Origin: Amphiscolops sp. MND2022
Taxonomy: Eukaryota
DNA length: 64,000 bases
Direction: 5' to 3'
Assembly (NCBI GenBank): GCA_964187785.1
Contig: OZ076409.1
Span: forward strand, 78,680,001-78,744,000
In this document: positions 1,184 through 24,521 of the stretch, piece by piece
Layout of the letters: each line of letters begins with the position of its first letter
How positions within the stretch are numbered: position 1 is the first letter of the stretch
Program-made: the position numbers and the translations under genes
The notes under the pieces: generated by a model
Told to the model about the DNA's origin: nothing
What the model saw: only the letters and a program-made list of their open reading frames with translations
The model's database searches: none

Positions 1184-3302
1184 TGTTACGACTATTTATC
1201 GGGGTGATTTTTCGATTAGTCGCAGTGGTTTTATTTTTGATTGGTGTCGAAGTTATGTTTTCCGGAATATTTTCGGACTCAGAATCTGTTTCTTCAGCAG
1301 TAGCTGTGACAGTTTGTTTTTTAACAGGAGCAGCTATTAGTTTTAACATCTCCTTTTGATTTTCGGCTAAAATTTTGGTGAGATCAGACATGATTTCCTT
1401 TCTTAGTGAAGACTTGATTTCCTCTAGATTTTCAGTGGTTACTCTAGGAGATTTACTTGACCCCGCTACGGGATTTAGGTTTTGATTAACCTCAGTTATT
1501 GGGGTCTCCATTTCGGTGGAAACTAGTTCTTCAACAGCTTTTCTCTTCTGGCATCTAGTAGTCATTTTAGATAGAGCGAGAGAGAGGTTGTTCTTTGGAA
1601 AAATTTGAATTCTTCAAAGAAATATGGTTTTCGAAACGAAGTATTAACGGAGTAGTCTAGGAAACAGATTAACTTATTTTAAAAATCCCTAGGTATATAT
1701 ACTTTCACAGCATCATTTGTTCCTCACCTAAAAATTCCTAGGAATCCTTAAAATCGGTTTTGTTCAACAAAAATGCTTAATCATCGTTATTATTTCAACC
1801 CCTTTATTACTTGTTCATGATTTAAAATTCCTAGTCACGGATCCCTTACGGAGTACTTGTTGAAATCATTTTTGTTCATTAACATCATTTCCGGTTTGAT
1901 CGCGGAAAAGGCGGCAAAACAAGTGTCTAGTTGAAACTTTATCGCGGAAAGCACGCGGGCGTGAACGATGATTCACTTTACGAGCAGTAAACTTTCAACT
2001 TGCGATAAAAGAAATGACAAGCGAAATTTGTTACGGAGACATCTCGGACGAATTTTGGATTGATAAACTGTGATATTTGAGAAGGAACAAATGATGCTGG
2101 AAAAATGATGAATACGAACTAAAAAACCTGATTATTGTAAATCAGAAAACAACCAACAATATTCTATCTAACTTTACATGAATTGAGTCAGTTAATACTG
2201 ACAAATGCAACAATTAAATAGTATATTCATGAAAGCAACGTTTCTACAACGTGATTAATACACAAAGTATTCTTTTACAGAATAGGAAGAAGCACTCTTT
2301 TGTAAGGATTCACTTTTATCCTAATTAACAGCACGAACTTTTTTTTAATCGATCACTAAAACGGAGAAAATCCGGGTGGAAAAAGTAAAACCTTATGATA
2401 ATTTAAATATCTCGGGATAATTCTACATGACCTCGGGAACATCCTAATGTAATTGGATAGCTTCTGTGTTTTAGAATTTTCCACGCTTGTCTTACATGTA
2501 TTAACATTAGGTATAACTTCGTCGATTTACAATTCGCTCCGTAAGCGCTCCGTACGTATTAAGATTAGGTATAGCTTCTTCGCATTACAATTTGCTCCGT
2601 AAGCGGTCCGTACGTATTAAGATTAGGTATAGTTGAGCAGTGCTTGCTTGCGGAGACAGAGCGGACTGCGTTAACAAATTCATTCTTATTCTCTCGCTCA
2701 ATTGGCGTTGCTATGGTAACTAGGGGTGGTGAAAGACGACGCTATTGGTCCGTAAAAATAGAAACATCTACCTTTCAATCAAGCTTAGTGACGCTGCCAT
2801 TACGTTGTAAATATTCTCTTAAGTTGTTTAACTGCATTCTTAAGTGGATATTCACAACTAATCAATCATTGGAAAACAATTCCACCATTCTCTTTGTATG
2901 TTCTTTCATTTTAGATTGTATGCGTTCCGTTGGGATCACGGAATTAAATATTGTTTTAGTGTTTTCATTTTAGTGTGGAGAAAAAGAAAAATTGATCCCA
3001 GTGTTAAGGATGTTTCCTTTTTAATATTTAGATTGGCATGGAATTTTCATCAGTCAAAACCGGAAGTGATGAAACGATTGCATGTGAAATCATTAAACCG
3101 GAAGTTTTCTTTTTGTCTAAATCATTTTTGAATAATTTACGTTGCACTTCCGTTAAACTTAATTCGTGCTGCTGTTTGGATAAAAGGTAAGGCATTAAAT
3201 AGTTTACTTAATGTTGTGTAGCTCTGCCGTGTCCTTTTCCTCGCGTGAATTGCGGTATTCCTCCACAGCAAGTAAAATCCCGACCGGGAGCGGGTCGTGA
3301 CA
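1184..3302 (-). repeat. 3' LTR of Gypsy A (2119 bp)
   Basis: Matches 15045-15309 plus 24527-26380, with about 4 substitutions seen by eye and no net indel; TG...CA ends. Confidence 0.96.
2498..2632. repeat. 58-bp tandem repeat (~2.3 copies) in the U3 part of the Gypsy A LTR; also at 25576-25710
   Basis: GTATTAA(C/G)ATTAGGTATA recurs at 2498, 2556 and 2614. Confidence 0.9.
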
Positions 3303-3942
3303 GGGCGCCTCTATAGCCTGTTGACCACGGTCTGGGGCAGTGGGGAATCTCTCTGGTGATCAATACTGGTTGTTTTCGTGCTCTTGCCAGTTTTGTAGAA
3401 GTATAGCGCGTTCCCCGTCCGCACAACGGGCTGTTCTCTCGGCTGCTTTGTAGCTCTATGCCATAGGCGTTTTCGATTTCTTCTACTGCTGGCTCCATCA
3501 AGTCGTCGAGTTTGTCGGCTTTTGCAGGCGGTCCATTGTACTGAAGCTCTTTGTTAGACACGTCTCGTAATACTGGGGCGGGCTGCAGCGGCGGTAGTTG
3601 ACGGGGAGTATCCGGCTCTTCAAAGTAGCTTTCTTCAGACGTTTCAGTACTATGCCCTTCCACTATGAAAGCTTCGCCAGGGCTTGTAGTGCCGAGGTTT
3701 ATTTTTCTCGGTGAGCCGATAGTCTCAAATGTAGACGCTGAGATGCCGGATAAATTTAGACTATTGATAGAGTCCATCATTTCTTCTGCACTGCCTTTTG
3801 TAGCTTCTAAGGAGGCTTCAGAAAGATCCAGTGTTGTTATCACATTAAGCGGGAGTATTTTGATCGGGGTGCTCTGTCTTACGTTGCTACCCCGTTCTTC
3901 TTCATCAGAAGAGATATCAATTACAAGTTCGTAATTGCTCAT
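3208..3942 (-). CDS. Gypsy A sense-strand accessory ORF (244 aa; acidic, Ser/Pro-rich; N-terminal SIM-like VIDISSDEEE) running into the 3' LTR
   Basis: ATG-initiated 244-aa ORF inside the element; crosses the LTR boundary at 3302. Confidence 0.7.
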   Translation of the reverse strand: MSNYELVIDISSDEEERGSNVRQSTPIKILPLNVITTLDLSEASLEATKGSAEEMMDSINSLNLSGISASTFETIGSPRKINLGTTSPGEAFIVEGHSTETSEESYFEEPDTPRQLPPLQPAPVLRDVSNKELQYNGPPAKADKLDDLMEPAVEEIENAYGIELQSSRENSPLCGRGTRYTSTKLARARKQPVLITREIPHCPRPWSTGYRGALSRPAPGRDFTCCGGIPQFTRGKGHGRATQH

Positions 3943-4446
3943 TTTTGAATTCTGAAGATTTCAACTAACTTAACTTCACGTTTGGGATGCGGCAAATGTA
4001 GAGGTCAACTCTCTTTTCGTTCGTGTTTTTCCTGCATTCCTATTGGTTGTTATTTTCTTTTGTTCAAGTTCGTTTTCCTTCGGAAGCGTTTCGTTTCCAA
4101 CTGCGCTGTGATTGGCTGAACCGCGGAATAAGTTTCCAATTTTGAGCTACGTCATGACGTCATTCGTTTCTTTTAGGAAGAATAACGTCTAATCTTTCGT
4201 AAATTTTAATTTGTTAAGCCTTTTCTTCAGAACTTCCTGGTGAATTTTGATTCTTCAGTAGCATTTTTCGTGGGAACGTTTTGTCCTGACGGTGCCGCAA
4301 TGGGCTTTTACTGAAGTTAAAATATGTACATTTCTTTAGTCACACAGGGATGGTGTTGTTGTTTTTTCTTTTCCAAAATTTTACGGGAGCACTACGTAGT
4401 TTTCCTCCTTTTCTTTTCTTTGATTATTTGTTTTCTTCTTTTTCAG
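3943..4446. promoter_or_regulatory. Putative bidirectional promoter between the two divergent accessory genes
   Basis: CCAAT/ATTGG boxes near 4042, 4110 and 4136; overlapping CRE-like TACGTCATGACGTCA at 4148-4162; lies between two divergent starts. Confidence 0.45.
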
Positions 4447-4479
4447 ATTCTCTTGAAGACTTCTGTAATCTTCCGAGTT

Positions 4480-7400
4480 ATGGACGACGCTGTTGTTCCT
4501 TCATCTGGTGCAGTCGCTGGTACTGTGAGTGGAAATGAGACAAATTTCTGCTATACCGATGATGATGTGGTTTTCTCAGATGTAGATGCTGCTATTACTT
4601 CTTCAGGTTGGTAAAATCTTTCTGACTTTCATGGGTATTTTGACTATTCTTTTGGTGATCAGCCTTTTGTAGTCTTTACCCGTAACCCTGACGCGTCAAA
4701 CCAGATCTTGATTTTCAGTAGCTCAACCTGGCATCCCGGCAGTGACTGTTTCCGTGCCTGCTACGGGAGTATCTTCCACTGTTGCTAATGTTTTGCCATC
4801 GGTTTCAACTATTCTGCCGCCCAAGTCTACTTGCAGCGTCAACGATGCGTTGACCAGTGTATTGTGTGCTTCCGGGGTTGTCGCTTCTTGCTCTGAGGTT
4901 TCTCCTCAAGTTGCCAATACTCTTCCCTAGTCTAGTAGTCCTGTTACTCGCCTTGTTGTCGCTACTAGCAGCGATAGTGAGTCTCAAGGAGTTGAGACAG
5001 ATCCCCCCAGCAAGAGGAAAACGGGTTGGTGAGGTTTGCTTTTGGCGTCATGTTTACGTCATGTAAGTGATAGCACCAGAGTATATTTGATATTATAGTT
5101 CTGCGCGGAGATGATTCGGCCGACGCTTCTGCTGGTGACGTTACGCCTTCAAAACGTGGGAAGAAGGTTGTGTTATTGCCACCGTCTCCTCCACCATTGA
5201 TGAATGCTGCTGGTAATTGGCTTAGTTAGTGTGTTGTTTTTCGCATTTGTTGTTTGGTTTGCCTCTATGGTGCTGGAAGAAGGAAGAAAAAAAAGGGGAT
5301 AGTTTGTCGTATTTTGTCAGGAACTTTTCGGGTGGGGTGATATTCTCTCTAAGTTGTCATTAAACATCCGTTGTTGTTTCAGGTAACGATGAGGAGCAGC
5401 TGTATCGCTCTGGTGGGGTGATGTTAAGTCCTCAGGACGTGGTTCGCCTTGGTCAACGATTAGTGGAAGAAGTGAAGGAGGGTACCAGTTTGGCTATCCA
5501 GAATGGTTAGTATTTTTGGTTTTCGGTTGAACGGTGTGTGTTCGGTTGCTACGTTGTTGCGGGCAGTTGTGTGGTTCGGAGTTTGGGTTTCATCTGTGCG
5601 TCTATTTTTGTATTTTGTTTTACAGAGTTGCAGGAGTTCAGCGGAAGGGTCGAGAAAAAATTGACGAAGAAAGTGGTGAAGACGTATGGTAGCCGCAACA
5701 TACTTCATCGTCGGATGTTGAGTCGTCATCCTGCCTTCCCTGACTTTGTGACGGGCTCCAAAAAGGGTGTGGGAACCCACTTCAATTGTCGAGTCTGTCA
5801 ACGTGATGTAGCCATGAGGTCCCAGTGCGTTGGCGAGTTTAGGAGGCATTTCCAATCAGATGCTCATTGGTTCAAGGACGTAACTTATCGCGTCCACATG
5901 GGGTTGCAGGTTTTGAACCGATTGATGGAACCAATGGAATTGTCAGAGAGACAGCTGGCGGATTATAAGTCACGGCCCTTTTGTGACCTGGGTGAAGAGT
6001 ACCCATTTCCGGAAGACTTGGTTCCCAAACACTCTAAGCCTGACTCAAATGTGCCCTTCATGACCTTGGTTTCCTGCTTTTGCGAGTTTCTTCGTAATGG
6101 TGGCGACTTCGACTATCTGCGTCGTCTGTGGGGCCATTTTTGTGCGACTTTGGGCGAACGGGAGCCGTGTTTTCCTTTGCGTTGGAGCCGTTCGGAGACT
6201 GTGGTTAGTCTGTTGTTTTTCCCTCTTTTTCTCTTCTTTTTCGTTTCTTTCCTTCTTTTTATGCCAGTTTAATTCCGTAGTTTGTTCGTGTGGGGGAGGG
6301 ATGATGATTTCCAGTAATTTGGGAGTGAGGTCTGTTGTACGTATTTTAGTCGTTTCTCTGTCAAGGGCTGGCCCCTCGGGTTCTTCGGCTGATGATTAGC
6401 GACATCAAGGCCTTTAAGGAGTATGGGGTGCAATTTGAGAAGTCTGGTCATGTCGAACGGTGCTATGTTCTGTGCTGGGACGGGCTTGTTTTGAAAAAGA
6501 TTTGTGTGGGCAATGAGACTCTCGACCAAAGGATGCCTGCCCCCGAATTGCTTCCGTTGGCTCGAGTTGTGAACTGCTTGGAGGGGCAACAGATGCCTGT
6601 ATCTATTTGTGGTGCCAGTCCTTCGCTGTTTCGGGTGCTGGACGCAGGGAGAACTGATGATCGTCGCTTTGTGTCTTGGCAATCCTTTGATGAAGAGGTG
6701 TTTTTGCAGTGCTTTCGCCAAGCTCACCAGGATATTTTCGGAATGATTGAGATAACAACAGCAGTGGAGTATATAATCCATCGGTTGAAAGGGGCTCTGT
6801 ATGAAGACTGGAGCGAGGACAAGCCTCTTCTGCGTGCAACCATACGTGCGGGTTCCGTGGCCTTTTGCGACTTGCGGGAGATCTTAAGTGATCTGATTGA
6901 GCTGTGGCCTTCCATACGTCCCTTCATTCGGTACACGGGACATCCGCATTTCAAGAGTACTGTTGATCGGGTGAGTGCTGTTATATTGTAATTTTCTTGG
7001 TTGTTTTTCCGTTCAATCTTCGTGTTTCCGTGTTTTTTTTTGTCAGTTATAGTTGCTTGTCTTCCTCTTTTTGCTATTTGATATTGATGGTGTATTATTT
7101 ATTTCAGTTGCGTGGTACGGACTTCGAGTTGGTCTCCGACAGTCTCATTGTGCATCGCTTTGGCTTCCTTCGGCTGCTGTTGGATTCCTGTAAGTACGAA
7201 GACGTTTCGTTAGGAGTATGATCTTTCAATTGGCTGTTGTCTTTTGTTGATTGGCTTTCTTTATTGTGTTGGTGCTATTGCGTTCAATTTCTGTTGATTG
7301 CTGTGTCCTGGAGGCAAGATGTGTGTTTGTTGACGAGCGTGTTTTGTTTTAGATTACTTCAACTTTGAGAAGCTTCGTCAAGGCCGTAAAGATTACGCCT

Positions 7401-8614
7401 TCCATGGTTACGGCGAGGTCTGTAACTTCGTTTATTGCCTCCTGATGCGGACTCGCAAGTTGTCCAGTTTGCCTGGGATACATGAGTGGGAGAGTTATAT
7501 GGATGTTTCGAAACTCTCTAGATTCGATGAGATTTCTATGAGCGAATTCTTAATGGATAGTGAGTTTGGGCGAGGGTTGTCTGCAATCAAGACGGGCGAC
7601 GTGCAAGATTTTCGGGTGAAGTGTCGTGAATGTATCGATCGTGTTGTCTCACTAATTGTGTCAAGCACTGCTGTTACTTCTGGTATTTCTCGCGGACTCT
7701 ACAGCTTCTGTCCCGAAATTATGTTGGAGGGCGATGATCTTCACATATTCGAATTGTTTGGTTCCCTCTGTGATTTGTTGAGATCTTGTCGCGTTATGAC
7801 ACCGGACGATTTGAATGCTGCTTCTGCTGAGTTTAAAAGTTATGTCATTGAGAAACGACGACATCACGAGGATGCTACGTGTGCTGCGAGTGACATTGAT
7901 GATGTCATTAGTTTCCTGTTGCGGGATTTTGCATTTCAGTCCCGAGTCCACGTATTTCGGCTATTCAAGTTATGTTGCCTTTTCGTTGGATTGCCGAAGA
8001 GTGACCCTCCTGCTGTGACGATAGATTTGGGTGGTAGCGCGCTGAAGTCGTCTGTTCTGCAAGAGTGCATTTTGATGGTGCAATCCCATATTATCGGGCC
8101 TAGTTTTAATGCTCGGTTATTCTTTTCTGGTTCACTCCTGTCCGCTATCCGTGATGCCCTTCTGAATGCTGGCGACTTCTTCAGGGTTACTGACTTTGAC
8201 GTGTGGAGGGATTTCTGCGTGGACGATATGGATGCGTTCATTAAACATTATGAATCGCTGTATTGTCGTCATGTCTTGGAGCGACGGAAGGAGTGCGAGG
8301 CATTTTATGTGGAGTCGAACAAAGCGAATCGAAGTGCTCGCGAAAGACAGTGTTCCAGTTCAACTGAGGTTGGAAGTGTGGCGAGTTCTGCTGCTAGTTC
8401 AAGGAAGTCGACCAATAAGCCATTGGTTACAAAATTTTTGAAGGCGGATGTGCCCGTTGTTCGTCCGGCTGTTAAAGGTAGCGATAAAGGGAGTGGAGCA
8501 GCTTCATCAAAACAGAGCGGGGCTAGTGGTTCAAAGGGGTCTAAGAAGAACAAAAAAGGTGATATCTATGATCCAGACGTCGTTCACAAACTGAGAAAGC
8601 CATCAAACAGATAG
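4480..8614 (+). CDS. Antisense multi-exon accessory gene of Gypsy A (~1070 aa): zinc finger plus degenerate hAT-transposase-like body; one in-frame TAG at 4928-4930 in this copy
   Basis: Coding exons 4480-4606, 4719-5024, 5099-5212, 5383-5505, 5626-6203, 6350-6970, 7108-7189, 7353-8614. All 7 introns are GT..AG with T-rich acceptors and matching phases; total 3213 nt = 1071 codons. Zinc-finger motif CRVC...HFQSDAH. Confidence 0.85.
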
Positions 8615-8807: not shown

Positions 8808-10322
8808 TTAGTTTTGAATTTGGGAGCTGTCTTCCGTAGTGATAGCGTCGAGCATCCGAAAATCAGGATGTGCATTAGGTCTAGGATTAGGTCGTAGGTT
8901 ATATCTTCCCGTTTTTCTAGGATTGTATCCGACAACTATAGGCGGCAATGTAGGCGGTATTGGGGGACTTTCTGTAGGCGGCGGGGTCATTATGAAAGGG
9001 TTATCACTGACGTCTAAGTTGAATGACGTGTTGTCTCCGGAAGATGTTTTATCCATCATTGTATTCTCATCTGCAGTTGTTGTAACTGTTTCATGGTCCG
9101 TTGTATCTCCGTCTTCAGTTTGTACTTCCGTGATAGTAGCTTCTTCATTGTCGTTTTCCGTTGGGGTTCCGAACAGAACTTCTCCGAATTCGGTCTCCCA
9201 AGCTTGCGCGTACCAATCATCATGGGTTGTTTTAACCTCAGGATCTGGAAGCTGATCTTCCACTTTGACTGTGACGTCAGGTACTCGTTGATTGGGCGCA
9301 TATAGCCTTAGGCGAATTCTATGGAGGGTTTGAGTGTATCTTGTTCCTGTTCGTCTTACGACGTAGTTGTTATTGGAAAGGACTTTGACCACTATATATG
9401 GTCCTGTCCAAATGCAATCTTTGAAAGCGAACTTCATTGACTGGTTATCAGCCTTCGGATTCAGGACATAGCAATAGTCATTGACTTTCAATGGCGTTGC
9501 TGTCGCTTTTTTATCGTAGTATCGCTTATATTTCAAATATGATTGCATAAGGTTGTCCTTGGCTGATTGATGTATCTCAGCTATTTGTTTCTGTAGTTCA
9601 TCCGTTAGGTCTTCGTTGGCATCTTTTTTCCATTCTGGCTTGAGTCCTAGTTTGATGTCTAGGATGTTGTACGGGATGCGTCCGTGAAATACGGTTGTTG
9701 GTTCGCATCCTAGGCTTTCGTGGTAACTAGTGTTGTAGTTCATTACTGCAATTTGTACGTATTTGTGCCACATTGAACGGCGTTCTCCCGTTGATATCTT
9801 GAGGGAAGTCTTTAGAGATGCATGCGTTCTTTCGAGTATGCCGATTGTTTGTGCATGCTTTGTTGACGCGTGACTAATCCGTATGTCCAGTGTTTGTGCT
9901 ATTTGGTTCACGACATCTGATCGGAATTGTGATCCTTTATCAGTCAGAATCACTGTAGGCAGATAACAGTGACGTGTCATAACGTCGATTATGCATCGTC
10001 CTACTGTTGTGGCAGTCATGTCTTGAGTGGGGTATGCGAACAAATAACGGGAGAAAACGTCCATCATGGTTATGATGTGTTTGTAGCCGTTTGATGAGGG
10101 TAGATTGGGTAGAATATCGACTTCTAGACAGTCTTCTGGTCCGAATGTGAATTCTCTATTACTCAGCATTTTAGGACGTATTTGGCGCGTGTCGATTCGT
10201 TTGTTGGATATGCAATCTGGGCAGTTGATTACCCAGGCTCTAATTTTCCGTGCAAGTCCCGGATAGTAATACTTTGCTCGGCTTTCCTGAATCATTTTGG
10301 TTATTCCTGGGTGTTTGTTCAT
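8808..10322 (-). CDS. pol: Gypsy A integrase (C-terminal part of pol, separated by a frameshift)
   Basis: HPG...CPDC zinc finger, rve core (EVDIL, LTDKGSQF, GILER) and GPY/F motif WTGPY. Confidence 0.95.
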   Translation of the reverse strand: MNKHPGITKMIQESRAKYYYPGLARKIRAWVINCPDCISNKRIDTRQIRPKMLSNREFTFGPEDCLEVDILPNLPSSNGYKHIITMMDVFSRYLFAYPTQDMTATTVGRCIIDVMTRHCYLPTVILTDKGSQFRSDVVNQIAQTLDIRISHASTKHAQTIGILERTHASLKTSLKISTGERRSMWHKYVQIAVMNYNTSYHESLGCEPTTVFHGRIPYNILDIKLGLKPEWKKDANEDLTDELQKQIAEIHQSAKDNLMQSYLKYKRYYDKKATATPLKVNDYCYVLNPKADNQSMKFAFKDCIWTGPYIVVKVLSNNNYVVRRTGTRYTQTLHRIRLRLYAPNQRVPDVTVKVEDQLPDPEVKTTHDDWYAQAWETEFGEVLFGTPTENDNEEATITEVQTEDGDTTDHETVTTTADENTMMDKTSSGDNTSFNLDVSDNPFIMTPPPTESPPIPPTLPPIVVGYNPRKTGRYNLRPNPRPNAHPDFRMLDAITTEDSSQIQN

Positions 10323-13300
10323 TTTTCCATGTACGTCGATAGGAGTTCTGGTACTATATGTTTCGGTATGAGGATTTGGTGATGTGTTACTGTGCCATCT
10401 TCTCCGTAGTATTTACGCATGAGTACTCCGTCTTTGACTATTATTCTTTCTTCGTGACGTAGTAGGTTTCGTCCTCTGGGTTCGGTCTTGAGAAGGTGTT
10501 TGTCGTATTCTTCGAGAAGCAGCCGTAGTTTCAATGCTTTCAATATTGGGTCCGCGTCCTGCTCGTTGCGGATGCGGGCGTTTTCCTTGATGGCTCCAAA
10601 GGCGTATACTGCTGAGTTGAGAGGTATGTGCACTGTTTCTGTGACTTCCGTTGTCAAGTTTTGTTGTTCCTTTTCGTCGATTGCTCGTTGTTTGCTAAGG
10701 GCTTTCCTGGCGAAAATTTCTTGTTCTGATTCCTCTTCTTCGTCTGGCAGGAAAAAGAGTTGTTCTTCGTCTGCAACATCTGTAGACTGTAGGTTAACCT
10801 CGATAGGTGCCGTTATGATGTCGCCTCGCAATTTGAGTTGGATTCTCTCTTTTGGAGTTAATTCGAGTCGAGACAGGAAGTCGGCTGCTGTATTTTGCGA
10901 GCCCGCTACGTGCATGATGCGGAATTTGAACTGGAGTACGTAGTCACAGGCATTCCAGAGAGCGGGTGGCGTTGTTTTCGTCTGGAAAAATCTTGTTACT
11001 GATCTGTTGTCTGTCAGTACTAGTGTAGGTAGTGTTGTTTCCCAGAGAATGTGACTATATTCGAGGAATGCATGATATATTGCGAGGAATTCTTTGCAGT
11101 ATATCGACATCTTCAGTTGTGACGGCGAGAATACGCGGGAGCCAAAAGCGACCGGTGCGAAAGCTTTCCGTTTGGAGAGTAGCTTTTTATCGTCGTTTTC
11201 TTCTATCATTAGGGCGTAACCTGATGCCCGGAAGCTTGCGTCCGTCATTAGTACGTATTGTTTTCCCGCAACTGGTTGTCTGAGGGCTAATCCACATGCT
11301 TCCGCTAGGCTTGCGTTGATGGCTTTGAAGTTGTCGACTAATTCTTCTGATATTGTGATTTTGGCATCTGCTTTTAGGAGTTCATACATTCCAATCATTT
11401 TTTCGGACAGTCTTGGTATGTAGTTTCTGTAGTAGTTGATGAATCCAATGTATTTCTGGACTTGTTTCTTTGACCGGGGAAATCTGATTTTTGATAGGAA
11501 GTTGGTGATTTTGTGTTCTTGCGGTGCTACTCCGTGGGGTGTGATGGTTCTTCCTAGGAATTCGATTTGGGTGACACCAAAGTGGCATTTTTCAATTGTG
11601 AGTTTTAGTCCTGCCTTGCGGATGCATTTGAAGACTGCTCTGATGTTCTTGATGAGTTGTTCCGTTGTGTTGGCGGCGATTCCGATGTCGTCCACATATT
11701 GGGCACACTGGTCTGCTTTGATGACGGTGTCGAGGTATTCCCGCATGAAGCTCGAAAAGGCTGACAAGGCTCTACTAAGGCCTTGGGCTAGCCTACGATA
11801 GGCAAACGTTCTACTAGCAAAATTAAATGCAAGGAGTTCTACTGACCTTTGATCTGCCATTTGGAGACAGTGATAGGCTTGTGAGCAATCTAGTTTGCAG
11901 AACAGCTGCTTCCCCGCTAGGTGTTGTGCGGCATCTGAGAGGGTGCTGATGGGGTGGTTGTTGTTTATATAGTCATCTGAGATGAGGGCGTTGATTTTCC
12001 GTAAGTCTACTAGGAGCCGTAGTTTTCCGTTGGGTTTGCGTTGTGCGAAGATGGGGCTGGCATATTTCGAGAATGGGAGGGTTGTGATGATCCCATATTT
12101 GTGCATCAGTGCCAATTCTACTGTGAGGTCGTCTTTGAGGTTGATGGGTACGGGGAGACTCTGTGTATATACCGGTTTGTCGTTTTTGGGAGTTAGGCAT
12201 ACCTTGAACTGGTTGTTCATTCCGATGTCCAGTCGGTGACGTGCAAAAATGTCGTTGAATTCGACTAGTGTGGACTCTAGGTTTTCACGGTCTTCTCCCG
12301 TTATTAGTGAATCATTCCATTTGAATAGCGAGAGGAATTGTGTTCTAGATTTTTCGTCTTGTTTGGGGTCCAGTTCTTCTAGTCTTTGTAGTTCGCGTAG
12401 TTCTCGTAGAATGCGTTGTTGGATGGGTGTGTGTTCCGATTCATCTCCGGGATTTTCGGGAGTTGGGAACCAGAATTTCTCTTCTGTTTGTTCTGACGAA
12501 TCAACTTGCATCAGTGCATTAACGTACGCAACAACATCGTCGTGTTCGGTAAGTAGATTGAGGGCTGCTATGTCTACTGCTCGTATCAATTTCGTTTCTT
12601 CGGGTTTCAGTATTTGTAATTCTGCTAGTTTCGTATGTGGCGTTATTGTATAGGGGAAGTCTGTGGTGTTCGCTATTTTTAACGCAACTCGTTTGTCTCG
12701 GGCTGTTGTTATTGCTGGGGCTACTATGAGTTTTGCATTTTCGTCGAACTGTGGTAAAGGTTGGACTGTCCCAGTTATTGAGTGGTCATTGCTTGTGGTG
12801 ATGGAGGCGTGGATGATTCGTGTGGTTTGGGCTGGTATGGTGTGTTTTTCTTCCGTTTTGATAGTGATGGGTTTGGGATTGCACTTCTGTCTTTCATCTT
12901 TTAGGGCTAGAGTGATTTGTATTTTGGGAAAGTCTATTGTTCCTTGTGCAGTATCTAGGATTGCGGAATGTTTCCGGAGGAATGCCAGGCCAATGATTGG
13001 GTAAGATGTTTTGGTCATGATGATGAAGGTCTCCTCGAACGCGTAATCCCCGATTTTGAATTGTATTGTGTATGTTGCACGGGCTTTTTCGAGTTCTGTG
13101 TTGGCATATTGTATCTTGAAAGGGGGCGGAGGTGCTTTCGCGATTATGGTTGCGTTGGCTTCAGTTTGTATCTTGTTTGCATCTCTTTCACTGATGACGT
13201 TGATGTAGGCTCCCGAGTCGACTAATGCATCAATTCTAGTGTTTTCAAAGTCGAGAGGAATAAAGAGCATTCTTTTCTTCTTTTTGAGGGTAATTGCCGA

Positions 13301-14023
13301 CATTAACGGAATGTAGTCGTTGTCTTTATCATGTTGTATGAATTCTTTTATGATGTTGAGATCGTATGGCAGTTGTTGTGGGCATTCCGTTACTTCGTCG
13401 TCTTCATGATTGTTGTTCTGATTTGGCAATTCAGATGCTGTTGTTGGGGGTGATACTATTTGATCGGCTGTTCCGCGTTGTTCTTTTGCTTGTTGTGACC
13501 ATATTGTTTTATCCTCAATGCAGATAATATTCTCTGCATCTATTGGTGTGTACGTGGTGGTGACGGGTGTTGGCGAGGACTGTGTTGTCTTTTTTAGGAT
13601 TGGTGACAAAGGTGTTGGTAGGGTTGTACTCTCGGTGACTTGAGCTTGAGGATTTGAAACTTGGATCTTAAAAGAGAGTTGGTTTGTGTCATAGATGGCT
13701 GGTTCATCCCAGGGATCACATCTATAGTCTTTATCATATATGTAAATGCGTTCGGTCTTTGATTCTGGTAAGGGTCTTTTTAGTGTCGCGTAGTTATCGG
13801 GCGATTCTGTTATCCATTGGGGTAGTGGTGTTGGGTCTTCTGGGTGTCGTGCATTGTGTCTAAGTATCATGCCTACGTTCCAACGACGTTGCCAGTCTTG
13901 TGTCGGTTCTTCATTGCATTCCGTCATGAAGTCTTCTTCGTAGCGATTTGGGGGGTCTTCTATTGTGTACGCCCTCGCGTCTACCGTTTCCCCGAAGCGG
14001 AGGCGCGGCGTTTTCAGTTTTTT
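10319..14023 (-). CDS. pol: Gypsy A pol: aspartic protease, reverse transcriptase, RNase H
   Basis: LVDSGA protease; RT motifs KLRLLVDLRKIN, KLDCSQAYH, YVDD; RNase H MTDAS...ADFLSR. The frame is open upstream of ATG 13927 to the slippery site. Confidence 0.96.
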   Translation of the reverse strand, partial: KKLKTPRLRFGETVDARAYTIEDPPNRYEEDFMTECNEEPTQDWQRRWNVGMILRHNARHPEDPTPLPQWITESPDNYATLKRPLPESKTERIYIYDKDYRCDPWDEPAIYDTNQLSFKIQVSNPQAQVTESTTLPTPLSPILKKTTQSSPTPVTTTYTPIDAENIICIEDKTIWSQQAKEQRGTADQIVSPPTTASELPNQNNNHEDDEVTECPQQLPYDLNIIKEFIQHDKDNDYIPLMSAITLKKKKRMLFIPLDFENTRIDALVDSGAYINVISERDANKIQTEANATIIAKAPPPPFKIQYANTELEKARATYTIQFKIGDYAFEETFIIMTKTSYPIIGLAFLRKHSAILDTAQGTIDFPKIQITLALKDERQKCNPKPITIKTEEKHTIPAQTTRIIHASITTSNDHSITGTVQPLPQFDENAKLIVAPAITTARDKRVALKIANTTDFPYTITPHTKLAELQILKPEETKLIRAVDIAALNLLTEHDDVVAYVNALMQVDSSEQTEEKFWFPTPENPGDESEHTPIQQRILRELRELQRLEELDPKQDEKSRTQFLSLFKWNDSLITGEDRENLESTLVEFNDIFARHRLDIGMNNQFKVCLTPKNDKPVYTQSLPVPINLKDDLTVELALMHKYGIITTLPFSKYASPIFAQRKPNGKLRLLVDLRKINALISDDYINNNHPISTLSDAAQHLAGKQLFCKLDCSQAYHCLQMADQRSVELLAFNFASRTFAYRRLAQGLSRALSAFSSFMREYLDTVIKADQCAQYVDDIGIAANTTEQLIKNIRAVFKCIRKAGLKLTIEKCHFGVTQIEFLGRTITPHGVAPQEHKITNFLSKIRFPRSKKQVQKYIGFINYYRNYIPRLSEKMIGMYELLKADAKITISEELVDNFKAINASLAEACGLALRQPVAGKQYVLMTDASFRASGYALMIEENDDKKLLSKRKAFAPVAFGSRVFSPSQLKMSIYCKEFLAIYHAFLEYSHILWETTLPTLVLTDNRSVTRFFQTKTTPPALWNACDYVLQFKFRIMHVAGSQNTAADFLSRLELTPKERIQLKLRGDIITAPIEVNLQSTDVADEEQLFFLPDEEEESEQEIFARKALSKQRAIDEKEQQNLTTEVTETVHIPLNSAVYAFGAIKENARIRNEQDADPILKALKLRLLLEEYDKHLLKTEPRGRNLLRHEERIIVKDGVLMRKYYGEDGTVTHHQILIPKHIVPELLSTYMEK
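13970..14023 (-). promoter_or_regulatory. Programmed -1 ribosomal frameshift signal (A AAA AAC plus GC-rich stem-loop)
   Basis: Heptamer at 14023-14017 directly before the gag TGA; 6-nt spacer, then a CGCCGCG...CGCGAGGGCG stem; pol is in the -1 frame. Confidence 0.85.
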
Positions 14024-15309
14024 GGCTGGATTTCAACAGTGGGGATTGGTTGTTCGCTGATTTGGCTGGTAGGGATTGTGAATTCATGACGTTTCTTCCT
14101 GGGGTCATTCGCCGCGTTAGCTCCGTACCAGCAGTTCTCGGTTTTGTGGAGTTTTCCGCAAGTGTCGCACTTTGGTTTGGGTGGTTCAATGGTGTTGGGG
14201 GCGCCGTTCCGTGCTTTAGTTTCGTAGTAACGATCTTTTCGTAATTTGCGGCATTGTGCTTTATAATGCCCCTGTTTGCCACAGTGGAAGCAACTTCCTC
14301 GTTGGGTGAGTTCCTTTTTTGGTTCCGGTGGGACGACGTCGACCGTATTTAGTGGTACTAGTGTGGTTTCGTCTGGGGCTCCCAGGCCATTAAGGCGCAT
14401 CTCTCGTTCGAGATGTAGGACAATATCATTATAGGGTTTGTCCTCGAGGTAGGCTCGGTTGAGGATCTTTTTGACGTGGTCTGGCATTTTGGCGTATATG
14501 GCCTTGTCTATAAATTTTTGTGCTTCAGAGCCGAACGCTTCTTTAGCCGTTTTTTGCAGTGTATCCAAAAATTCATGTAGTTTTTGTTTGGTTGGGTCAA
14601 AATGTAGCGAGTCCCATTCGCATCTCGCTTTGGCAGAAGATTGGAAATCTCCGAAGCGTCGTTTGAACGCCGTAATTACTTCCTCTAAATTATCTTTTTT
14701 GGCATCATCTAAGTTGCAATATGCCTGTAGTGCATTGCCTCGTAGTAGTGAGTGGAAGTAGTTGATTTTTTGGATTTCTGTTAGATGTGGGTACATTTTT
14801 ATGTTGTTCCGGAATAAGTCCTCGAAAAGTTCGAATTTTTCTGACTTACCATCGAATACAGGCAGTGATGCAGTGAGTGCTTTGGGCATTGGGGGTAGGT
14901 GGGGCAGCTGGTGTATTTCTGGTTGGGGAGCGAAGAGTAGTCGTGATGTCGAAGGACGTTCGTTGGGTGGCAAACTTTGTGGGCGATGCGGTCGTGTTTT
15001 CTTCTTTCCGAGGTTCGTTGAGTCATTGAGGACTCCTGTCACCATGTTACGACTATTTATCGGGGTGATTTTTCGATTAGTCGCAGTGGTTTTATTTTTG
15101 ATTGGTGTCGAAGTTATGTTTTCCGGAATATTTTCGGACTCAGAATCTGTTTCTTCAGCAGTAGCTGTGACAGTTTGTTTTTTAACAGGAGCAGCTATTA
15201 GTTTTAACATCTCCTTTTGATTTTCGGCTAAAATTTTGGTGAGATCAGACATGATTTCCTTTCTTAGTGAAGACTTGATTTCCTCTAGATTTTCAGTGGT
15301 TACTCTAGG
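14014..15309 (-). CDS. gag: Gypsy A gag, main part; its N-terminus lies at 24643-24527, beyond the BEL insertion
   Basis: Capsid-like LPVFDGKSEKFELFEDLF; knuckles CFHCGKQGHYKAQC and CDTCGKLHKTENC. Removing the BEL element and one TSD copy restores a 470-aa ORF. Confidence 0.93.
   Translation of the reverse strand, partial: PRVTTENLEEIKSSLRKEIMSDLTKILAENQKEMLKLIAAPVKKQTVTATAEETDSESENIPENITSTPIKNKTTATNRKITPINSRNMVTGVLNDSTNLGKKKTRPHRPQSLPPNERPSTSRLLFAPQPEIHQLPHLPPMPKALTASLPVFDGKSEKFELFEDLFRNNIKMYPHLTEIQKINYFHSLLRGNALQAYCNLDDAKKDNLEEVITAFKRRFGDFQSSAKARCEWDSLHFDPTKQKLHEFLDTLQKTAKEAFGSEAQKFIDKAIYAKMPDHVKKILNRAYLEDKPYNDIVLHLEREMRLNGLGAPDETTLVPLNTVDVVPPEPKKELTQRGSCFHCGKQGHYKAQCRKLRKDRYYETKARNGAPNTIEPPKPKCDTCGKLHKTENCWYGANAANDPRKKRHEFTIPTSQISEQPIPTVEIQPKN
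15030..15044 (-). other. Primer-binding site of Gypsy A (TGGTGACAGGAGTCC)
   Basis: TGG immediately follows the CA end of the 5' LTR; the priming tRNA was not identified. Confidence 0.75.
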
Positions 15310-15657
15310 TAAAGAAACTGTATTTTCGAATCGCCTTCGGCTAATAATACAGTCCGTTTGCAAAGAGTTTTTTGAACGCAATATTAAAACATTCAAAGAC
15401 ATCAGTGAATAAATCGAAACAACTTGCAAAAGATCAATATTGTTTACAAATATAATTAAACAAATTAAAGTTTCGAGATAGCAAATTATTTGAATGATAT
15501 TTGAAAAATATATTTTACTATTTTCAGAAGTAGCAAATATTTGACGGTTTCGGGAATCGAACCGGTAACCTTCAAATTCCGAGTCCCATACTCTACCGAC
15601 CGTGCTACGGTCACTTAATTTTGTTTGTTTTAATTCAACCATATTTGCTTTGCAACA
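15310..15657 (-). repeat. BEL 3' LTR (348 bp)
   Basis: No difference seen from 24174-24521; preceded on the minus strand by the PPT-like GGGCCCGGAGGA. Confidence 0.95.
15541..15614 (-). ncRNA. tRNA-like Pol III cassette inside the BEL LTR (second copy 24405-24478); not a functional tRNA
   Basis: Minus strand reads GTGACCG-TAGCACGGTCGGTAGAGT-ATGGGACTCGGAATTTGA-AGGTT-ACCGGTTCGATTCCCG: A box, anticodon-like loop and B box at tRNA spacing, but the stems pair poorly. Confidence 0.65.
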
Positions 15658-15816
15658 TCCTCCGGGCCCAAGAAGGTGTGAATGCAAAAAACTGAAAAAA
15701 CTTTTTTACTATTTTTTTTTCGGAAAACGGTTTACATGGAATTTTGATGTACATGTTACATTTTACTCATATTAGGCATGATTACAAGCAAGAACAAAAT
15801 TGAAGAAGGTTGAAGA

Positions 15817-18800
15817 TTAGGAAAGATTGGGAGAATCCGGGGACGGGAGAACGGGTGCGAGTTTGACGATGGGTCGAACTAAGTTTCCTGTTGCTGTTTT
15901 CAGTTCTGCAGAGCGGGCGACTGAGTCGGTTCCGTAGTTCAACTTAACCACTCGCGCAAGTGGGTAATGTCCTCGTGGACTCGTCGGTTCGACAATCCAG
16001 ACGAGGTCTCCGGTGATGAGATCTCGCTCTGGTGGAGCCGACCACTTTGAACGACGGTTAAGTGAAGGGACGTACTCTCTTAACCAGCGTTCCCAAATAG
16101 CATCAGAATATGCTTGAGCACGGACGTAACGCTTACGGTGGTCAATGTCAGCACGTTGGTGAGATGGCATCGTGGAACCCGCGGTTCCCAACAGGAAGTG
16201 ATTAGGTGTCAGAGCGTCTAAATCCGTGGCGTCTGAACTTGCAGGTACGAGTGGGCGGGAATTGAGACTCTGCTCGACTAAACAAAACGTAGTTGTCAAA
16301 ATCTCATCTGTTAGTCGCCGGTTTCCAAGAATCGCGTAGAAGATGTGTTTAAAACTCCTTACAATACGTTCCCAGACACCTCCATGGTGGGGAGCACTTG
16401 GAGGATTAAACTTCCATTGGATCCGTTTTTTGACGAGCGTTTCCGACAAGGTTTGTTGGTTCCAAGCTGCTACGTTTTGTAACAATTCCTTTTCGCTGGC
16501 AACGAAATTTGTTCCATTGTCAGACCACAAGACAGATGGAGTGCCCCGGCGGGCAGCGAAGCGCTCTATTCCCATCACACAACTACTAGTGTCCATGGTA
16601 GGGACAACTTCGAAGTGAACGGCTCTAGTAGTAAGACAGGTGAAAAGGAAACCCCATCGTTTCTCTGTTGACCTTTTAACAGAAACGTAGAAAGGTCCGA
16701 AGTAGTCGATGCCAGTATTGGTGAAAGGAGGTTCTCTGTAAGCTAGTCTTTCGCGGGGAAGATCTGCCATTATCGGATTGATTGTATTAGCTCGTCGTTT
16801 CCAGCATGTAACACACTTCGAGACAACTGTTCGCAGGGATGCTCTAAGTTTGACGATAGCGAACTGTTGTTGCACTAGCGCCCTCAAATAGTCAATACCT
16901 TGATGACAGTGTGTTTGATGGAGATGTTCTAAGAAAAGCCGGATAACAGGATGTCGGCTGTCGAGTAGAACTGGGTGTTTGGCATCAAAGTTGGACACTT
17001 CGAGTCGTTTCGTTCGACCGGTTGCTCGCAAGAGGCCTTGAGGCCCAATGAAGGGGGAAAATTGAAGGATTTTGGAAGTACTGTTGAGTGGAGATCCTTT
17101 CAACAGACTCGTCTTCTCTGTAGGAAAAGACTCATGTTGCACGAGGTAGAAAAGTCTACATTGAGCATTCTCTAGTTCTTGGGGATCAGTGACAGAGCCC
17201 GAAATGGAACGGTATCCTTCGTTTTTCGGCAGTAAGCGCAAAGCGTAGGCAACAACGCGCAGGAGTTTCTCGTACGAGCTGTACTTCTGCCACTCGAAAG
17301 TTGATGCGATGCTAGCTACTGTTGCACTTAATGCAGTGTCAGTTTCGAAAGTAGTGTAATTGGTTTCATGAAGCTCTGTCGTTTTTGCTTTCAGTTTGAA
17401 TTTCACGTTTGTTGGTGGTACAAATGGCCAGTCGGGAGTTTTCAGAAACGAAGGTCCGGTGAGCCAAGGGCTGTCGCGAAGTGACTTGGCACAAATTCCG
17501 CGTGTCCCAGCATCTGCCGGGTTATCACTTGACTTCACATAGTTCCATTCGTCTACCGTACTGAGTTCTAGGATTTCTGCTTCACGGTTTGTAACAAAGA
17601 CTGGCTGCTTTTCTAACGAGTTGAGCCAATGCAGGACCGTCGTGCTGTCAGTCCACATGAAAATCTTGTCAATCTTTAACGTGAGGGCATTTTGAATTTC
17701 TTTTCGAAGTCGTGCGGCGAGTAATGAGGCCTGTAACTCGAGCTTGGGAATCGTGAGGGCTTTCATAGGTGCCACTCTAGCTTTTCCGAAGACGAAAGCT
17801 AGTTCGGTACAGGTGCGGTTAGCAGCGGTTACCTTTCCTCGTAAAAAGGCGACGGCGCTGAAAACATCTTGTGAGCTATCACCAAACATGTGAAGCTCCA
17901 TTGATTCCACACGTCCTTCGAAGTAGCTCCTTGGTATTTCAATTTCGCCCAACGTTGTTAACTCTTCACTCCATTCAATGAACTTGGTTACAATCTCATC
18001 TGGTAGGTCATCGTCCCATTGTTGACCACTTAGTCTCCAGATGTCTTTCAACAATAACCTCGCTTGAACGGTGTAGGGAGCCACGAGGCCAATTGGGTCG
18101 TACACCGCTGAAACTAAGCTCAACACTACCCGTTGTGTTATCTTTTTCGTGGTGTCGGGACTTGTGCCTCGACTCACTACAAGGGTATCAGTTGAGTGAT
18201 TCCATTTGAGTCCCAAAACGTGGGAACACTCTTCAGCGATTGGTATTTCTTTTTCTTGATTCGATGTGAGGTCTGGTTCGAGCTTGGTTGGCAGCTGGCT
18301 CACGTTAGAAACGAATTTGGTTAGCTTGAACCCGCCTTTTGCAAGTAGCTTTACTAGGTCCTTCGCTTTGTTGCTGGCATCTTCCACGGTAGGACTTGAT
18401 TCCAGGTAGTCGTCCATGTAGAAGCTTCGATGGACACTTTGAGCTGCTTGCGGAAAATCGCTTTGATTGTCGGTACCGGTCCGTTTCAACGCGTAGTTGG
18501 CGCACGTGGGCGAGTCTTTGGAGCCAAAGATATGCCGGGTGTATTGGTATACAGCTATTTCGGAAGTTGGGTCTTCCCGCCACAGGAAACGAAGTGACGG
18601 TCGGTCGCGTGGAATAACTCCAACTTGGAGAAACATTCCTTCTATGTCGGCGGAGACAGCATACTTGAACTGTCGGAAACGAATTAGGATGTGGATTAAA
18701 CTTTGTAGCAAATCCGGTCCAGTTAACAAGGCGTTGTTCAGGGATTTACTTTGAAACTTTGCTGTTCCGTTCAAAACTCTGCGGACTTTGCCAGGTTTAT

Positions 18801-22197: not shown

Positions 22198-22627
22198 GAT
22201 AATGTCGAAAGTGGAAATCGGTAACCGTTTGTACTTTTCCCGACGTCAACCAAACAATCAAGTTTGGACGCAGTTCAAGGAAATGTTTAGTGGTGAGGAA
22301 TACGGGGTCAATCAGTGACAGCACGGTGTTTATACAGTGCTTAGAGAAAGAAATTGGCGGTTTTTTTTTTTTGGTTTTAAGTTAAAAGTAGTCACAGACT
22401 ACGAGGACGGAACACGATAAACTCAAAGTCGCGTCGACTCAACGCGGTAACAGTTGACGGTGGTGCGGGTGAGGGACGAAACGACTTTCAGAGTATCATC
22501 CAGTCAGTCAAGGCTGGACACAACTCTGAAAGAAGGAGGAAGAGCTGAAGAAACTTCAACCGATCAGTGAAGTTCGGACACTGTCTCGACAGCTGGAACC
22601 AGCGGGGGGGGGGGTTGTCAACTGAGA

Positions 22628-24155: not shown

Positions 24156-24173
24156 ATCCTGGTCTGGACACCA
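24156..24173 (-). other. BEL primer-binding site (TGGTGTCCAGACCAGGAT)
   Basis: 18-mer starting with TGG directly after the 5' LTR and ending in GGAT, as expected for the complement of a tRNA 3' end. Confidence 0.8.
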
Positions 24174-24521
24174 TAAAGAAACTGTATTTTCGAATCGCCT
24201 TCGGCTAATAATACAGTCCGTTTGCAAAGAGTTTTTTGAACGCAATATTAAAACATTCAAAGACATCAGTGAATAAATCGAAACAACTTGCAAAAGATCA
24301 ATATTGTTTACAAATATAATTAAACAAATTAAAGTTTCGAGATAGCAAATTATTTGAATGATATTTGAAAAATATATTTTACTATTTTCAGAAGTAGCAA
24401 ATATTTGACGGTTTCGGGAATCGAACCGGTAACCTTCAAATTCCGAGTCCCATACTCTACCGACCGTGCTACGGTCACTTAATTTTGTTTGTTTTAATTC
24501 AACCATATTTGCTTTGCAACA
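24174..24521 (-). repeat. BEL 5' LTR (348 bp)
   Basis: Direct repeat of 15310-15657. Confidence 0.95.

What the first reader, a model, noticed from the sequence alone, without database searches (positions are those of the whole stretch)
3208..4480. Second accessory ORF with a phospho-SIM-like motif, divergent from the antisense gene
Seen: a 244-aa low-complexity ORF begins MSNYELVIDISSDEEE and sits head-to-head with the spliced gene across ~540 bp containing CCAAT and CRE-like sites. Established: a V/I-x-V/I core followed by Ser/acidic residues is the SUMO-interacting motif, and SUMO acts in transposon silencing. Inference: a co-regulated two-gene cassette that may counter host silencing. It shows no env-like hydrophobic segments.
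Basis: partly seen in the sequence, partly recalled or inferred. Interest (0 to 1): 0.72.

Follow-up and report, generated by a model that had tools for sequence, protein, structure and literature searches.

The report
Motif-studded accessory gene of a retrotransposon
A jumping gene carries an extra, conserved gene for a floppy protein studded with short docking signals for the host's SUMO and cell-division machinery, a possible way for the element to steer its own silencing.

Summary
The ORF (3942→3208, 244 aa) is real. It has 72 relatives at 29–98% identity. The SIM word is kept in 37 of 38 aligned members and is one of the two most conserved blocks; 47 of 73 proteins keep it in frame with the C-terminal block over 20 different spacings. 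The protein is predicted disordered, has no transmembrane segment and has no Pfam, PDB or Atlas match. The family also keeps CDK/Plk-type, PP1 (RV[S/T]F, absent in this copy), B56-like and KEN/D-box-like words. Relatives of the two genes share contigs (57 versus 9 expected), but partners are shuffled between subfamilies. Best reading: a nuclear, cell-cycle-timed adaptor that docks on SUMOylated chromatin proteins, made from an internal promoter. SUMO binding, transcription, co-regulation and anti-silencing are all untested, and the effect could be repressive.

The parts
3208..3942 (-). Accessory ORF, 244 aa, same strand as gag-pol, no intron, predicted disordered
3901..3927 (-). Phospho-SIM-like word LVIDISSDE (residues 6-14)
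   Evidence: 37 of 38 aligned members; block conservation 0.97 against 0.54 overall; consensus from PMC8616421
3859..3873 (-). STPIK (residues 24-28): CDK-site / Polo-box-docking-like word (label recalled)
   Evidence: STP[ILV][KR] in 34 of 38 and 174 of 182 full-frame members
3694..3708 (-). RKINL (residues 79-83): site where close relatives carry a PP1-docking [RK][VI][ST]F word; this copy does not match the consensus
   Evidence: RV[ST]F in 22 of 38 (15 of 16 long clade, 7 of 22 others), not in the window copy
3553..3570 (-). LRDVSN (residues 125-130): D-box-tail-like word without the canonical Arg
   Evidence: 15 of 22 short-clade rows, 0 of 16 long-clade rows; the long clade has KEN in 12 of 16
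3493..3510 (-). LDDLME (residues 145-150): matches the PP2A-B56 [LMFI]xx[ILV]xE consensus
   Evidence: L[ND]DLxE in 29 of 38; consensus from PMC6406801
3211..3354 (-). Basic C-terminal block with His/Cys and Gly-Arg words (REIPHC..RGALSRPAPG..CC..RGKG), spanning the internal-region/LTR edge
   Evidence: net charge +12 for residues 171-244, -20 for 1-170; conservation here is confounded with DNA-level signals at the LTR edge
3943..4479 (.). 537-bp gap between the two ATGs; putative bidirectional internal promoter: CCAAT boxes at 4042 and 4111 (facing the ORF) and 4136 (facing the partner), CRE at 4155, strong splice acceptor ending at 4446
   Evidence: read-through peptides of 4 of 10 relatives are compatible with kept CCAAT boxes; promoter activity untested
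4480..8614 (+). Antisense partner gene: 8-exon model (4480-4606, 4719-5024, 5099-5212, 5383-5505, 5626-6203, 6350-6970, 7108-7189, 7353-8614), about 1070 codons, all introns GT-AG with matching phases; one in-frame stop at codon 113 unless exon 2 holds a further intron; a C-x2-C-x12-H-x5-H word in exon 5; no family assigned
   Evidence: model; 38 relatives of the last exon; no match
1184..3302 (-). 3' LTR (2119 bp, TG...CA); holds the end of the accessory ORF and a copy of the gag start
8808..13927 (-). pol (protease, RT, RNase H, integrase in Ty3/Gypsy order), with a frame break near 10322-10334
14014..15309 (-). gag (downstream part); gag starts inside the LTR, reads through the primer-binding site at about 15044, and is interrupted by a nested element
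15045..26380 (-). 5' LTR in two pieces (26380-24522 and 15309-15045), split by a nested LTR element at 15310-24521 with a 5-bp target duplication

Best explanation
This is a real accessory gene of a Ty3/Gypsy lineage. It encodes a disordered nuclear adaptor made of short host-like docking words. Shown: the ORF is conserved and in frame across the family, lies on the gag-pol strand, runs into the 3' LTR, and travels with an intron-bearing antisense gene. Inferred: it is transcribed from a CCAAT/CRE promoter in the 537-bp gap and ends in the LTR. Its N-terminal phospho-SIM docks on SUMOylated chromatin proteins. CDK/Plk-type sites, PP1 and PP2A-B56 docking words and APC/C-like degrons restrict it to part of the cell cycle. 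The basic His/Cys/Gly-Arg tail probably binds nucleic acid. The most likely net effect is to loosen or compete with SUMO-dependent repression of the element in dividing cells. My odds by step: real protein-coding gene 0.93; the SIM binds SUMO 0.7; internal promoter 0.65; net pro-element, anti-silencing effect 0.4.
For: 72 relatives among 408 candidates at 29-98% identity. 47 of 73 proteins keep the SIM and the C-terminal block in one frame over 20 spacings of 177-262 residues. Neutral drift to 45% or 32% identity would leave the frame free of stops with probability about 9e-4 or 2e-4, ignoring indels. Ten clusters of 19-82 members from distant subfamilies list many full-length copies. The SIM block scores 0.97 against 0.54 for the protein, is kept in 227 of 239 members that cover the N-terminus, and such a word occurs in 0 of 120 pol and 0 of 169 partner-gene relatives. 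Of 55 recalled motif patterns, most of the enriched ones are nuclear or cell-cycle types: SIM 37 of 38, RV[ST]F 22 (0.5 shuffled), KEN 17 (2.2), D-box tail 15 (0.2), basic runs 15 (2.1). 22 of 23 RVxF matches in the expected region have Ser/Thr at x, the Aurora-B-regulated type (PMC6721574 passage). Co-occurrence with the partner gene: 57 shared contig lengths against 9.1 expected, concentrated by subfamily, 0 of 2000 permutations. SUMOylation of piRNA silencing effectors is reported (PMC11512509 passage), and viral SIM proteins counter silencing (PMC8616421 passages).
Against: No binding, expression or DNA-level (dN/dS) evidence was obtained. SIM patterns are degenerate and many predicted SIMs are not real (PMC8616421). 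Motif counts are inflated by shared descent; shuffles do not control for that, and some irrelevant patterns (SH2 YEE 27 of 38, NES, TRAF2) were also enriched. The window copy lacks RVxF, KEN and the basic run, and a canonical RxxLxxxxN D-box occurs in only 2 of 38. Hits are selected for being open frames, and many copies are fragments (94 of 276 members lack one of the two end blocks). Substitutions are only modestly more conservative than neutral. The C-terminal block overlaps the LTR edge, so its conservation may be DNA-driven. No catalytic or ligase domain is predicted, unlike ICP0 or K-bZIP. Partner pairing is mosaic. A SIM serves repressors as readily as activators.
Confidence: 0.4

Rival explanations
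1. Cell-cycle or mitotic-access adaptor. The protein uses the same words to time or place the element (tethering to mitotic chromatin, or acting as a phosphatase or APC/C decoy that lengthens a favourable phase). The SIM is a localisation signal and silencing is not the target.
For: RV[S/T]F, B56-type, CDK/STP and KEN/D-box-like words are kept alongside the SIM. Repo-Man and BubR1 combine such words (PMC6721574, PMC6406801 passages). The short clade keeps a D-box-tail word and the long clade KEN, as expected if degron function is kept while the word turns over.
Against: The SIM is far better conserved than any cell-cycle word except STP. RVxF is missing in this recently inserted copy and in 54 of 182 full-frame members that read RKIN[LF] (RKINF still fits the looser consensus).
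Confidence: 0.25
2. Self-limiting repressor. The protein recruits SUMO-dependent repression to its own LTR or internal promoter and so holds the element latent or limits copy number.
For: Phospho-SIMs of this form are typical of PML and Daxx, which are repressive (PMC8616421). A CtBP-like pattern (P-L/V-N-M-V type) matches 22 of 38. Foamy virus Bet, made from an internal promoter, suppresses that promoter (PMC13220597, abstract start).
Against: The CtBP match is a weak variant and absent from the window copy. The lineage is abundant (pol clusters of up to 1547 members). Self-limiting elements are argued to be out-competed (PMC5408684 passage).
Confidence: 0.17
3. The gene is real but is not driven by a shared divergent promoter. 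The ORF is made from a spliced (or trans-spliced) LTR transcript and the antisense gene from an antisense promoter in the 3' LTR, so the head-to-head layout says nothing about co-regulation. This rival concerns expression only and can hold together with any protein function.
For: A possible acceptor (TCTTCAG) ends 10 nt before the ORF's ATG. The partner has a strong acceptor at 4446 with no clear donor upstream. The LTR holds its own X-box/CCAAT/half-CRE cluster at 2701-2793. Rotifer ORF3s are said to be typically expressed from spliced messages (PMC5408684) and HTLV has an antisense promoter in the 3' LTR (PMC7264820).
Against: The candidate acceptor lacks the T-rich tract seen at the partner's acceptors. 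CCAAT-compatible words persist upstream in relatives at 46-84% ORF identity. The full CRE is rare in the window. Grande's antisense gene has its own internal promoter (PMC7264820).
Confidence: 0.3
4. Not a protein gene: an open frame kept by chance or by DNA/RNA signals near the LTR.
For: The best-conserved C-terminal block coincides with the LTR start. No domain, fold or outside homolog was found. No transcript was seen.
Against: Frame kept over 20 indel lengths and down to 30% identity; start Met nearly invariant; the homologous sequence just upstream is not held in frame (window stop); the SIM lies about 620 bp from the LTR edge.
Confidence: 0.05

Closest known systems
Additional ORFs between pol and the 3' LTR in plant Ty3/Gypsy elements (Retand, Grande gene23; PMC11963269 passages, PMC7264820 main text)
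   Same: Long pol-to-LTR region; family-wide antisense gene of unknown function; an internal promoter and nuclear localisation reported for Grande.
   Different: No TRP28 or other Pfam match here. The partner has a seven-intron model, and a second, sense-strand ORF faces away from it and runs into the LTR. No SUMO mention in the Retand paper (0 hits).
Foamy virus tas/bet (internal promoter; PMC13220597 abstract start) and LTR-overlapping retroviral genes such as HIV nef and MMTV sag (recalled)
   Same: Non-envelope regulatory genes placed just before or across the 3' LTR on the sense strand, with an internal promoter in foamy viruses.
   Different: The element is Ty3/Gypsy by domain order and nearest solved relative, has no env, and shows no sequence likeness to those proteins in Pfam or PDB.
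Viral SIM proteins KSHV K-bZIP and HSV-1 ICP0 (PMC8616421 passages)
   Same: Core V-I-D-hydrophobic; nearby phosphorylatable serines; proposed use against nuclear silencing.
   Different: Those are SUMO or ubiquitin ligases; this protein has a single SIM, no predicted folded domain and no RING.
Mitotic motif scaffolds such as Repo-Man and BubR1 (PMC6721574, PMC6406801 passages)
   Same: Disordered chains that combine RVxF, LxxIxE, CDK/Plk sites and APC/C degrons.
   Different: No homology; encoded by a mobile element; the words are predicted only, and RVxF and KEN are patchy.
Transposon-encoded anti-silencing factors of plant DNA transposons (PMC11512509 passage; the name VANC is recalled)
   Same: Element-encoded accessory proteins proposed to lift host repression.
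   Different: Those have coiled-coil and DNA-binding folds and act on DNA methylation; none of that is seen here, and no effect is shown.
Non-env ORF3s of bdelloid rotifer LTR elements (PMC5408684 passages)
   Same: Animal LTR retrotransposons with family-specific, modular third ORFs.
   Different: Those are env-like, transmembrane, GDSL esterase or DEDDy nuclease; this one is none of these.

Membership tests
Ty3/Gypsy LTR retrotransposon (host element) | Direct LTRs with TG...CA ends and a short target-site duplication | tested here: met
   2119-bp LTRs, 5-bp GCACC duplication, single copy at two empty sites
Ty3/Gypsy LTR retrotransposon (host element) | pol order protease-RT-RNase H-integrase; RT nearest to Ty3 | tested here: met
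   Pfam order; best solved relative Ty3 Gag-Pol, E 7e-30. The clade within Ty3/Gypsy was not placed.
env / env-like ORF3 | Transmembrane segment or envelope homology | tested here: not met
   Best hydropathy 1.03; 0 Pfam families in 38 members
Phospho-SIM proteins | hhXh or hXhh core flanked by Ser/acidic residues | tested here: met
   LVIDISSDEEE; 37 of 38; consensus in PMC8616421
Phospho-SIM proteins | Motif lies in a disordered, accessible region and is conserved above its flanks | tested here: met
   pLDDT below 50 for residues 1-20; rank 5 of 238 windows
Phospho-SIM proteins | Binds SUMO, more tightly when phosphorylated | not testable with these tools
   No SUMO sequence was available to the complex predictor; no job was sent
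SUMO-targeted or SUMO ligases (ICP0, K-bZIP type) | RING or other ligase domain, or tandem SIMs | tested here: not met
   No Pfam or PDB match and no folded domain; one strong SIM only
PP1 regulatory proteins | [KR]x(0-1)[VI]x[FW] docking word | tested here: inconclusive
   24 of 38 members match, the window copy does not; binding untested
APC/C substrates or decoys | RxxLxxxxN D-box or KEN box | tested here: inconclusive
   Canonical D-box 2 of 38; KEN 17 of 38, KENxxP 6 of 38; Arg-less tail word 15 of 38
Retand-type antisense aORF | TRP28 (PF04195) domain | tested here: not met
   No Pfam match for the ORF or for exons 5, 6 and 8 of the partner; exons 1-4 and 7 were not scanned
hAT-transposase-derived proteins (partner gene) | hAT dimerisation or catalytic fold | tested here: inconclusive
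   Only an Atlas lead at score 0.84, rank 20, 22% of that cluster with PF05699; Pfam and fold searches gave no clear match
Bidirectional promoter | Divergent capped start sites within the gap | not testable with these tools
   No RNA run was listed

The most novel reading that the evidence does not exclude
A retrotransposon lineage has built, without capturing a host gene, a disordered mimic of mitotic chromatin scaffolds. It couples SUMO docking to PP1/PP2A recruitment and APC/C-timed destruction, and opens a cell-cycle window in which the element escapes SUMO-dependent silencing. It works with an intron-protected antisense partner and is swapped between subfamilies together with the LTR.
Probability: 0.2. 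Interest if true: 0.85.

Novelty: new variant of a known kind. Interest (0 to 1): 0.62.

Why it matters
Accessory ORFs of LTR retrotransposons are common but, apart from env and a few captured enzymes, their functions are unknown. This family gives short, testable handles: a near-invariant phospho-SIM, plus natural members with and without PP1 and APC/C words. Peptide binding and cell-cycle assays can therefore ask directly whether an animal-type retrotransposon engages the SUMO silencing pathway or the mitotic phosphatases. The layout (sense ORF into the LTR, back to back with a seven-intron antisense gene) also shows retrovirus-like regulatory complexity in an element without env.

Tried and rejected
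No whole genome is held for this window. No RNA holder was listed, which is no evidence either way. DNA of relatives was not found: 32 pattern matches in viral contigs and 596 in metagenome contigs, none confirmed. So dN/dS, promoter alignment and direct synteny were not run. Pfam: 0 families for 38 members. PDB profile: 1 chance-level hit, E 0.06. Atlas: no usable hit. The ORF model (pLDDT 53) was too poor for a fold search, so none was run. The profile search found 179 proteins; the 150 listed are at most 303 aa and mostly fragments, so no fused or long cellular form appeared, but the library has no names and I did not read every sequence. Partner gene: my impression of a hAT-derived protein was not confirmed (best Z 5.8, generic helical bundles). 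Rejected: env (no hydrophobic segment); 'low complexity'; the upstream 276-278-aa starts called in some relatives (absent here and in most subfamilies). No Rfam match in the window. No earlier finding of this scan matched. Paper searches listed no description of this family or of a SIM-bearing retrotransposon accessory ORF; I saw only the top listings, the library lacks most subscription journals, and no supplements were read.


Full report
Setting. The finding lies in a Ty3/Gypsy LTR retrotransposon on the minus strand, 1184-26380. It has 2119-bp LTRs with TG...CA ends and a 5-bp target duplication (GCACC) that is single at two empty sites in a 5.1-kb tandem repeat further along the window. 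The LTRs differ at 5 positions (a sixth mismatch is the junction of a nested element), so the insertion is recent. pol has the order protease, RT, RNase H, integrase and its best solved relative is Ty3. This copy is damaged: a second LTR element sits in its 5' LTR (15310-24521) and pol has a frame break near 10322-10334 against a 97% relative. No call names the host; it is an AT-rich eukaryote with short GT-AG introns, and my impression of an invertebrate animal is recalled, not tested.

The observation. The ORF runs 3942→3208, 244 aa, on the gag-pol strand; 0 of 1000 Markov samples reach that length. The gap to the partner's ATG is 537 bp with three CCAAT boxes (about 1.5 expected) and one full CRE (0.04 expected). 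There is no hydrophobic segment. SEG masks about 8 residues, so 'low-complexity' should read 'disordered' (AlphaFold2 pLDDT 53, pTM 0.14).

Is it a gene? A search gave 72 relatives among 408 candidates, 29-98% identical, all unnamed and without Pfam domains. I aligned the window protein with 37 of the 72, leaving out near-duplicates, fragments, frameshifted and chimeric calls (pairwise identity 30-95%). Of all 73 proteins, 47 hold the N-terminal word and the C-terminal block in one frame, at 20 different spacings from 177 to 262 residues. Neutral drift to 45% or 32% identity would leave no stop with probability about 9e-4 or 2e-4 before counting indels. Such hits are selected for being open, and many copies are decayed: 182 of 276 listed cluster members keep both ends. 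But distant subfamilies each have clusters of 19-82 members with many full-length copies. The start Met is nearly invariant, whereas the homologous sequence just upstream changes frame or stops. Substitutions are only modestly more conservative than neutral. A profile search of 1.84 billion representatives found 179 proteins; the 150 listed are at most 303 aa. Pfam, PDB and Atlas gave nothing. I conclude that it is an orphan, lineage-restricted protein gene (about 0.93). DNA of relatives could not be had, so dN/dS is missing.

The SIM. LVIDISSDEEE fits the hhXh core followed by serines and acids described for PML-type phospho-SIMs (PMC8616421, passages). It is kept in 37 of 38 aligned rows, 58 of 73 first hits, 92 of 115 search hits and 227 of 239 cluster members that cover the N-terminus. 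Its block conservation is 0.97 against 0.54 overall, rank 5 of 238 windows. The only equal block, RGALSRPAPG, sits on the LTR edge and may be held by DNA signals; the SIM is free of that confound. A comparable word occurs in 0 of 120 pol and 0 of 169 partner relatives. The same review warns that many predicted SIMs are not real, and binding was not testable here.

Other words. With a panel of 55 patterns recalled from memory, the enriched ones in 38 rows were mostly nuclear or cell-cycle types: S[ST]P 36 (12.8 shuffled), full CDK site 36 (14.4), RV[ST]F 22 (0.5), KEN 17 (2.2), an Arg-less D-box tail 15 (0.2), B56-type LxxIxE 32 (18.3), four basic residues 15 (2.1), RG repeats 26 (1.0). Consensus forms for RVxF, LxxIxE, D-box and KEN are in PMC6406801 and PMC6721574 (passages). 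The tree splits a 16-row long clade (100/100) from the rest. RV[ST]F is in 15 of 16 and 7 of 22 rows, at different distances from the EEP block (16-25 versus 26-31 residues), KEN mainly in the long clade and the D-box tail only in the others. That looks like motif turnover with function kept, but it is inference. Against: shared descent inflates all counts, a few irrelevant patterns were enriched too (SH2 YEE 27, NES 37, TRAF2 34), a canonical D-box is in 2 of 38, and the window copy has no RVxF, KEN or basic run.

The partner and the cassette. The plus-strand gene can be modelled as eight exons from 4480 to 8614 with GT-AG introns and matching phases, about 1070 codons, with one stop at codon 113 unless exon 2 has a further intron. 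Introns would survive retrotransposition only in this antisense orientation, and the sense ORF has none (inference). Its last exon has 38 relatives among 7057 candidates and no family or fold match; a hAT link is only a weak Atlas lead. Using equal contig length as a key, members of 20 ORF clusters (285 entries) and 10 partner clusters (137 entries; at most 15 members listed per cluster) share 57 contigs against 9.1 expected from ORF-ORF coincidences, concentrated in particular subfamily pairs (0 of 2000 permutations), including contigs of 9.7 and 35 kb. This shows shared contigs, not adjacency or orientation. The pairing is mosaic: a 96% partner goes with ORFs at 97%, 84% and 46% identity; an 84% ORF goes with 45-47% partners; 34% ORFs go with 65-67% partners. 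So the cassette is a family trait, but the two genes recombine and need not be a matched pair; the ORF may travel with the LTR it overlaps.

Promoter. Read-through peptides of 4 of 10 relatives with long upstream extensions carry words compatible with the CCAAT boxes, in subfamilies down to 46% ORF identity. This is compatible with, not proof of, a kept internal promoter. A possible acceptor 10 nt before the ATG, a strong acceptor at 4446 and an X-box/CCAAT cluster in the LTR keep LTR-driven splicing alive as a rival; trans-splicing would be another route if the host uses it, as some worms do (PMC9911081, passages; not tied to this record).

Mechanism. Best reading (0.4): a nuclear, cell-cycle-timed adaptor that docks through its phospho-SIM on SUMOylated chromatin proteins, brings or responds to mitotic kinases and phosphatases, and favours the element's expression. 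Rivals: cell-cycle or mitotic-access adaptor (0.25), self-limiting repressor (0.17), no protein (0.05); separately, expression without a shared promoter (0.3).

Comparison and novelty. Extra ORFs between pol and the 3' LTR are known in plants, including antisense genes with their own promoter (PMC7264820, parts 1-2 of 3; PMC11963269, passages), and in rotifers (PMC5408684, passages). Foamy viruses make Tas and Bet from an internal promoter (PMC13220597, abstract start); nef and sag overlapping the LTR are recalled. PMC13524379 (passages) had nothing on this layout, and the Cer1 CERV paper PMC10309623 was seen only as a listing. The present gene is a member of none of these families. My searches (earlier findings 13, 45, 48) listed no description of it; supplements were not read. 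I rate it a new variant of a known kind: a retrotransposon accessory gene, new in sequence, motif content and layout. Interest 0.62; 0.85 if the SUMO-plus-mitotic-phosphatase reading holds.

Noticed in passing
window 1173-1565 and 15045-15309: gag starts inside the LTR (ATG at 1565 in the 3' LTR copy) and reads through the LTR end and the primer-binding site, so both ends of this LTR are overlapped by coding frames.
   Followed up: partly
window 2707-2720 and 25785-25798: A near-palindromic GTTGCTATGGTAAC in both LTRs resembles an RFX X-box (label recalled), next to two CCAAT boxes and a half CRE; it may be the LTR enhancer or an antisense promoter.
   Followed up: no
window 2498-2632: 58-bp tandem repeat, 2.3 copies, in each LTR.
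   Followed up: no
window 15310-24521: Nested LTR element with identical 348-bp LTRs, a 5-bp target duplication, a 2126-aa polyprotein (BEL/Pao-like by recalled layout, not scanned) and a further 202-aa ORF at 22628-23236 upstream of it.
   Followed up: no
window 26381-38877 and 1-1183: The element sits in a 5.1-kb tandem repeat at about 99% identity, with short inverted repeats (138-nt arms) inside the unit; the other units are empty sites.
   Followed up: partly
window 42490-48523 and 53228-59591: Two further Gypsy-like elements of another family in opposite orientation, about 70% identical to each other, with short terminal repeats and no long pol-to-LTR region.
   Followed up: no
P0031 and P0046: Two relatives join a piece of the antisense gene (exon 5 or exon 1 homolog) to the accessory ORF in one frame, which needs an inversion or a mis-assembly in those copies. 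Unexplained.
   Followed up: partly
P0343, P0355: Two of 120 listed pol relatives at about 72% RT identity carry an extra PF00692 domain (dUTPase by recall of the accession), so accessory content varies in this lineage.
   Followed up: no
window 4928-4930: In-frame stop in modelled exon 2 of the antisense gene, which also ends a good splice-acceptor-like tract; either this copy is broken there or there is a further intron.
   Followed up: partly
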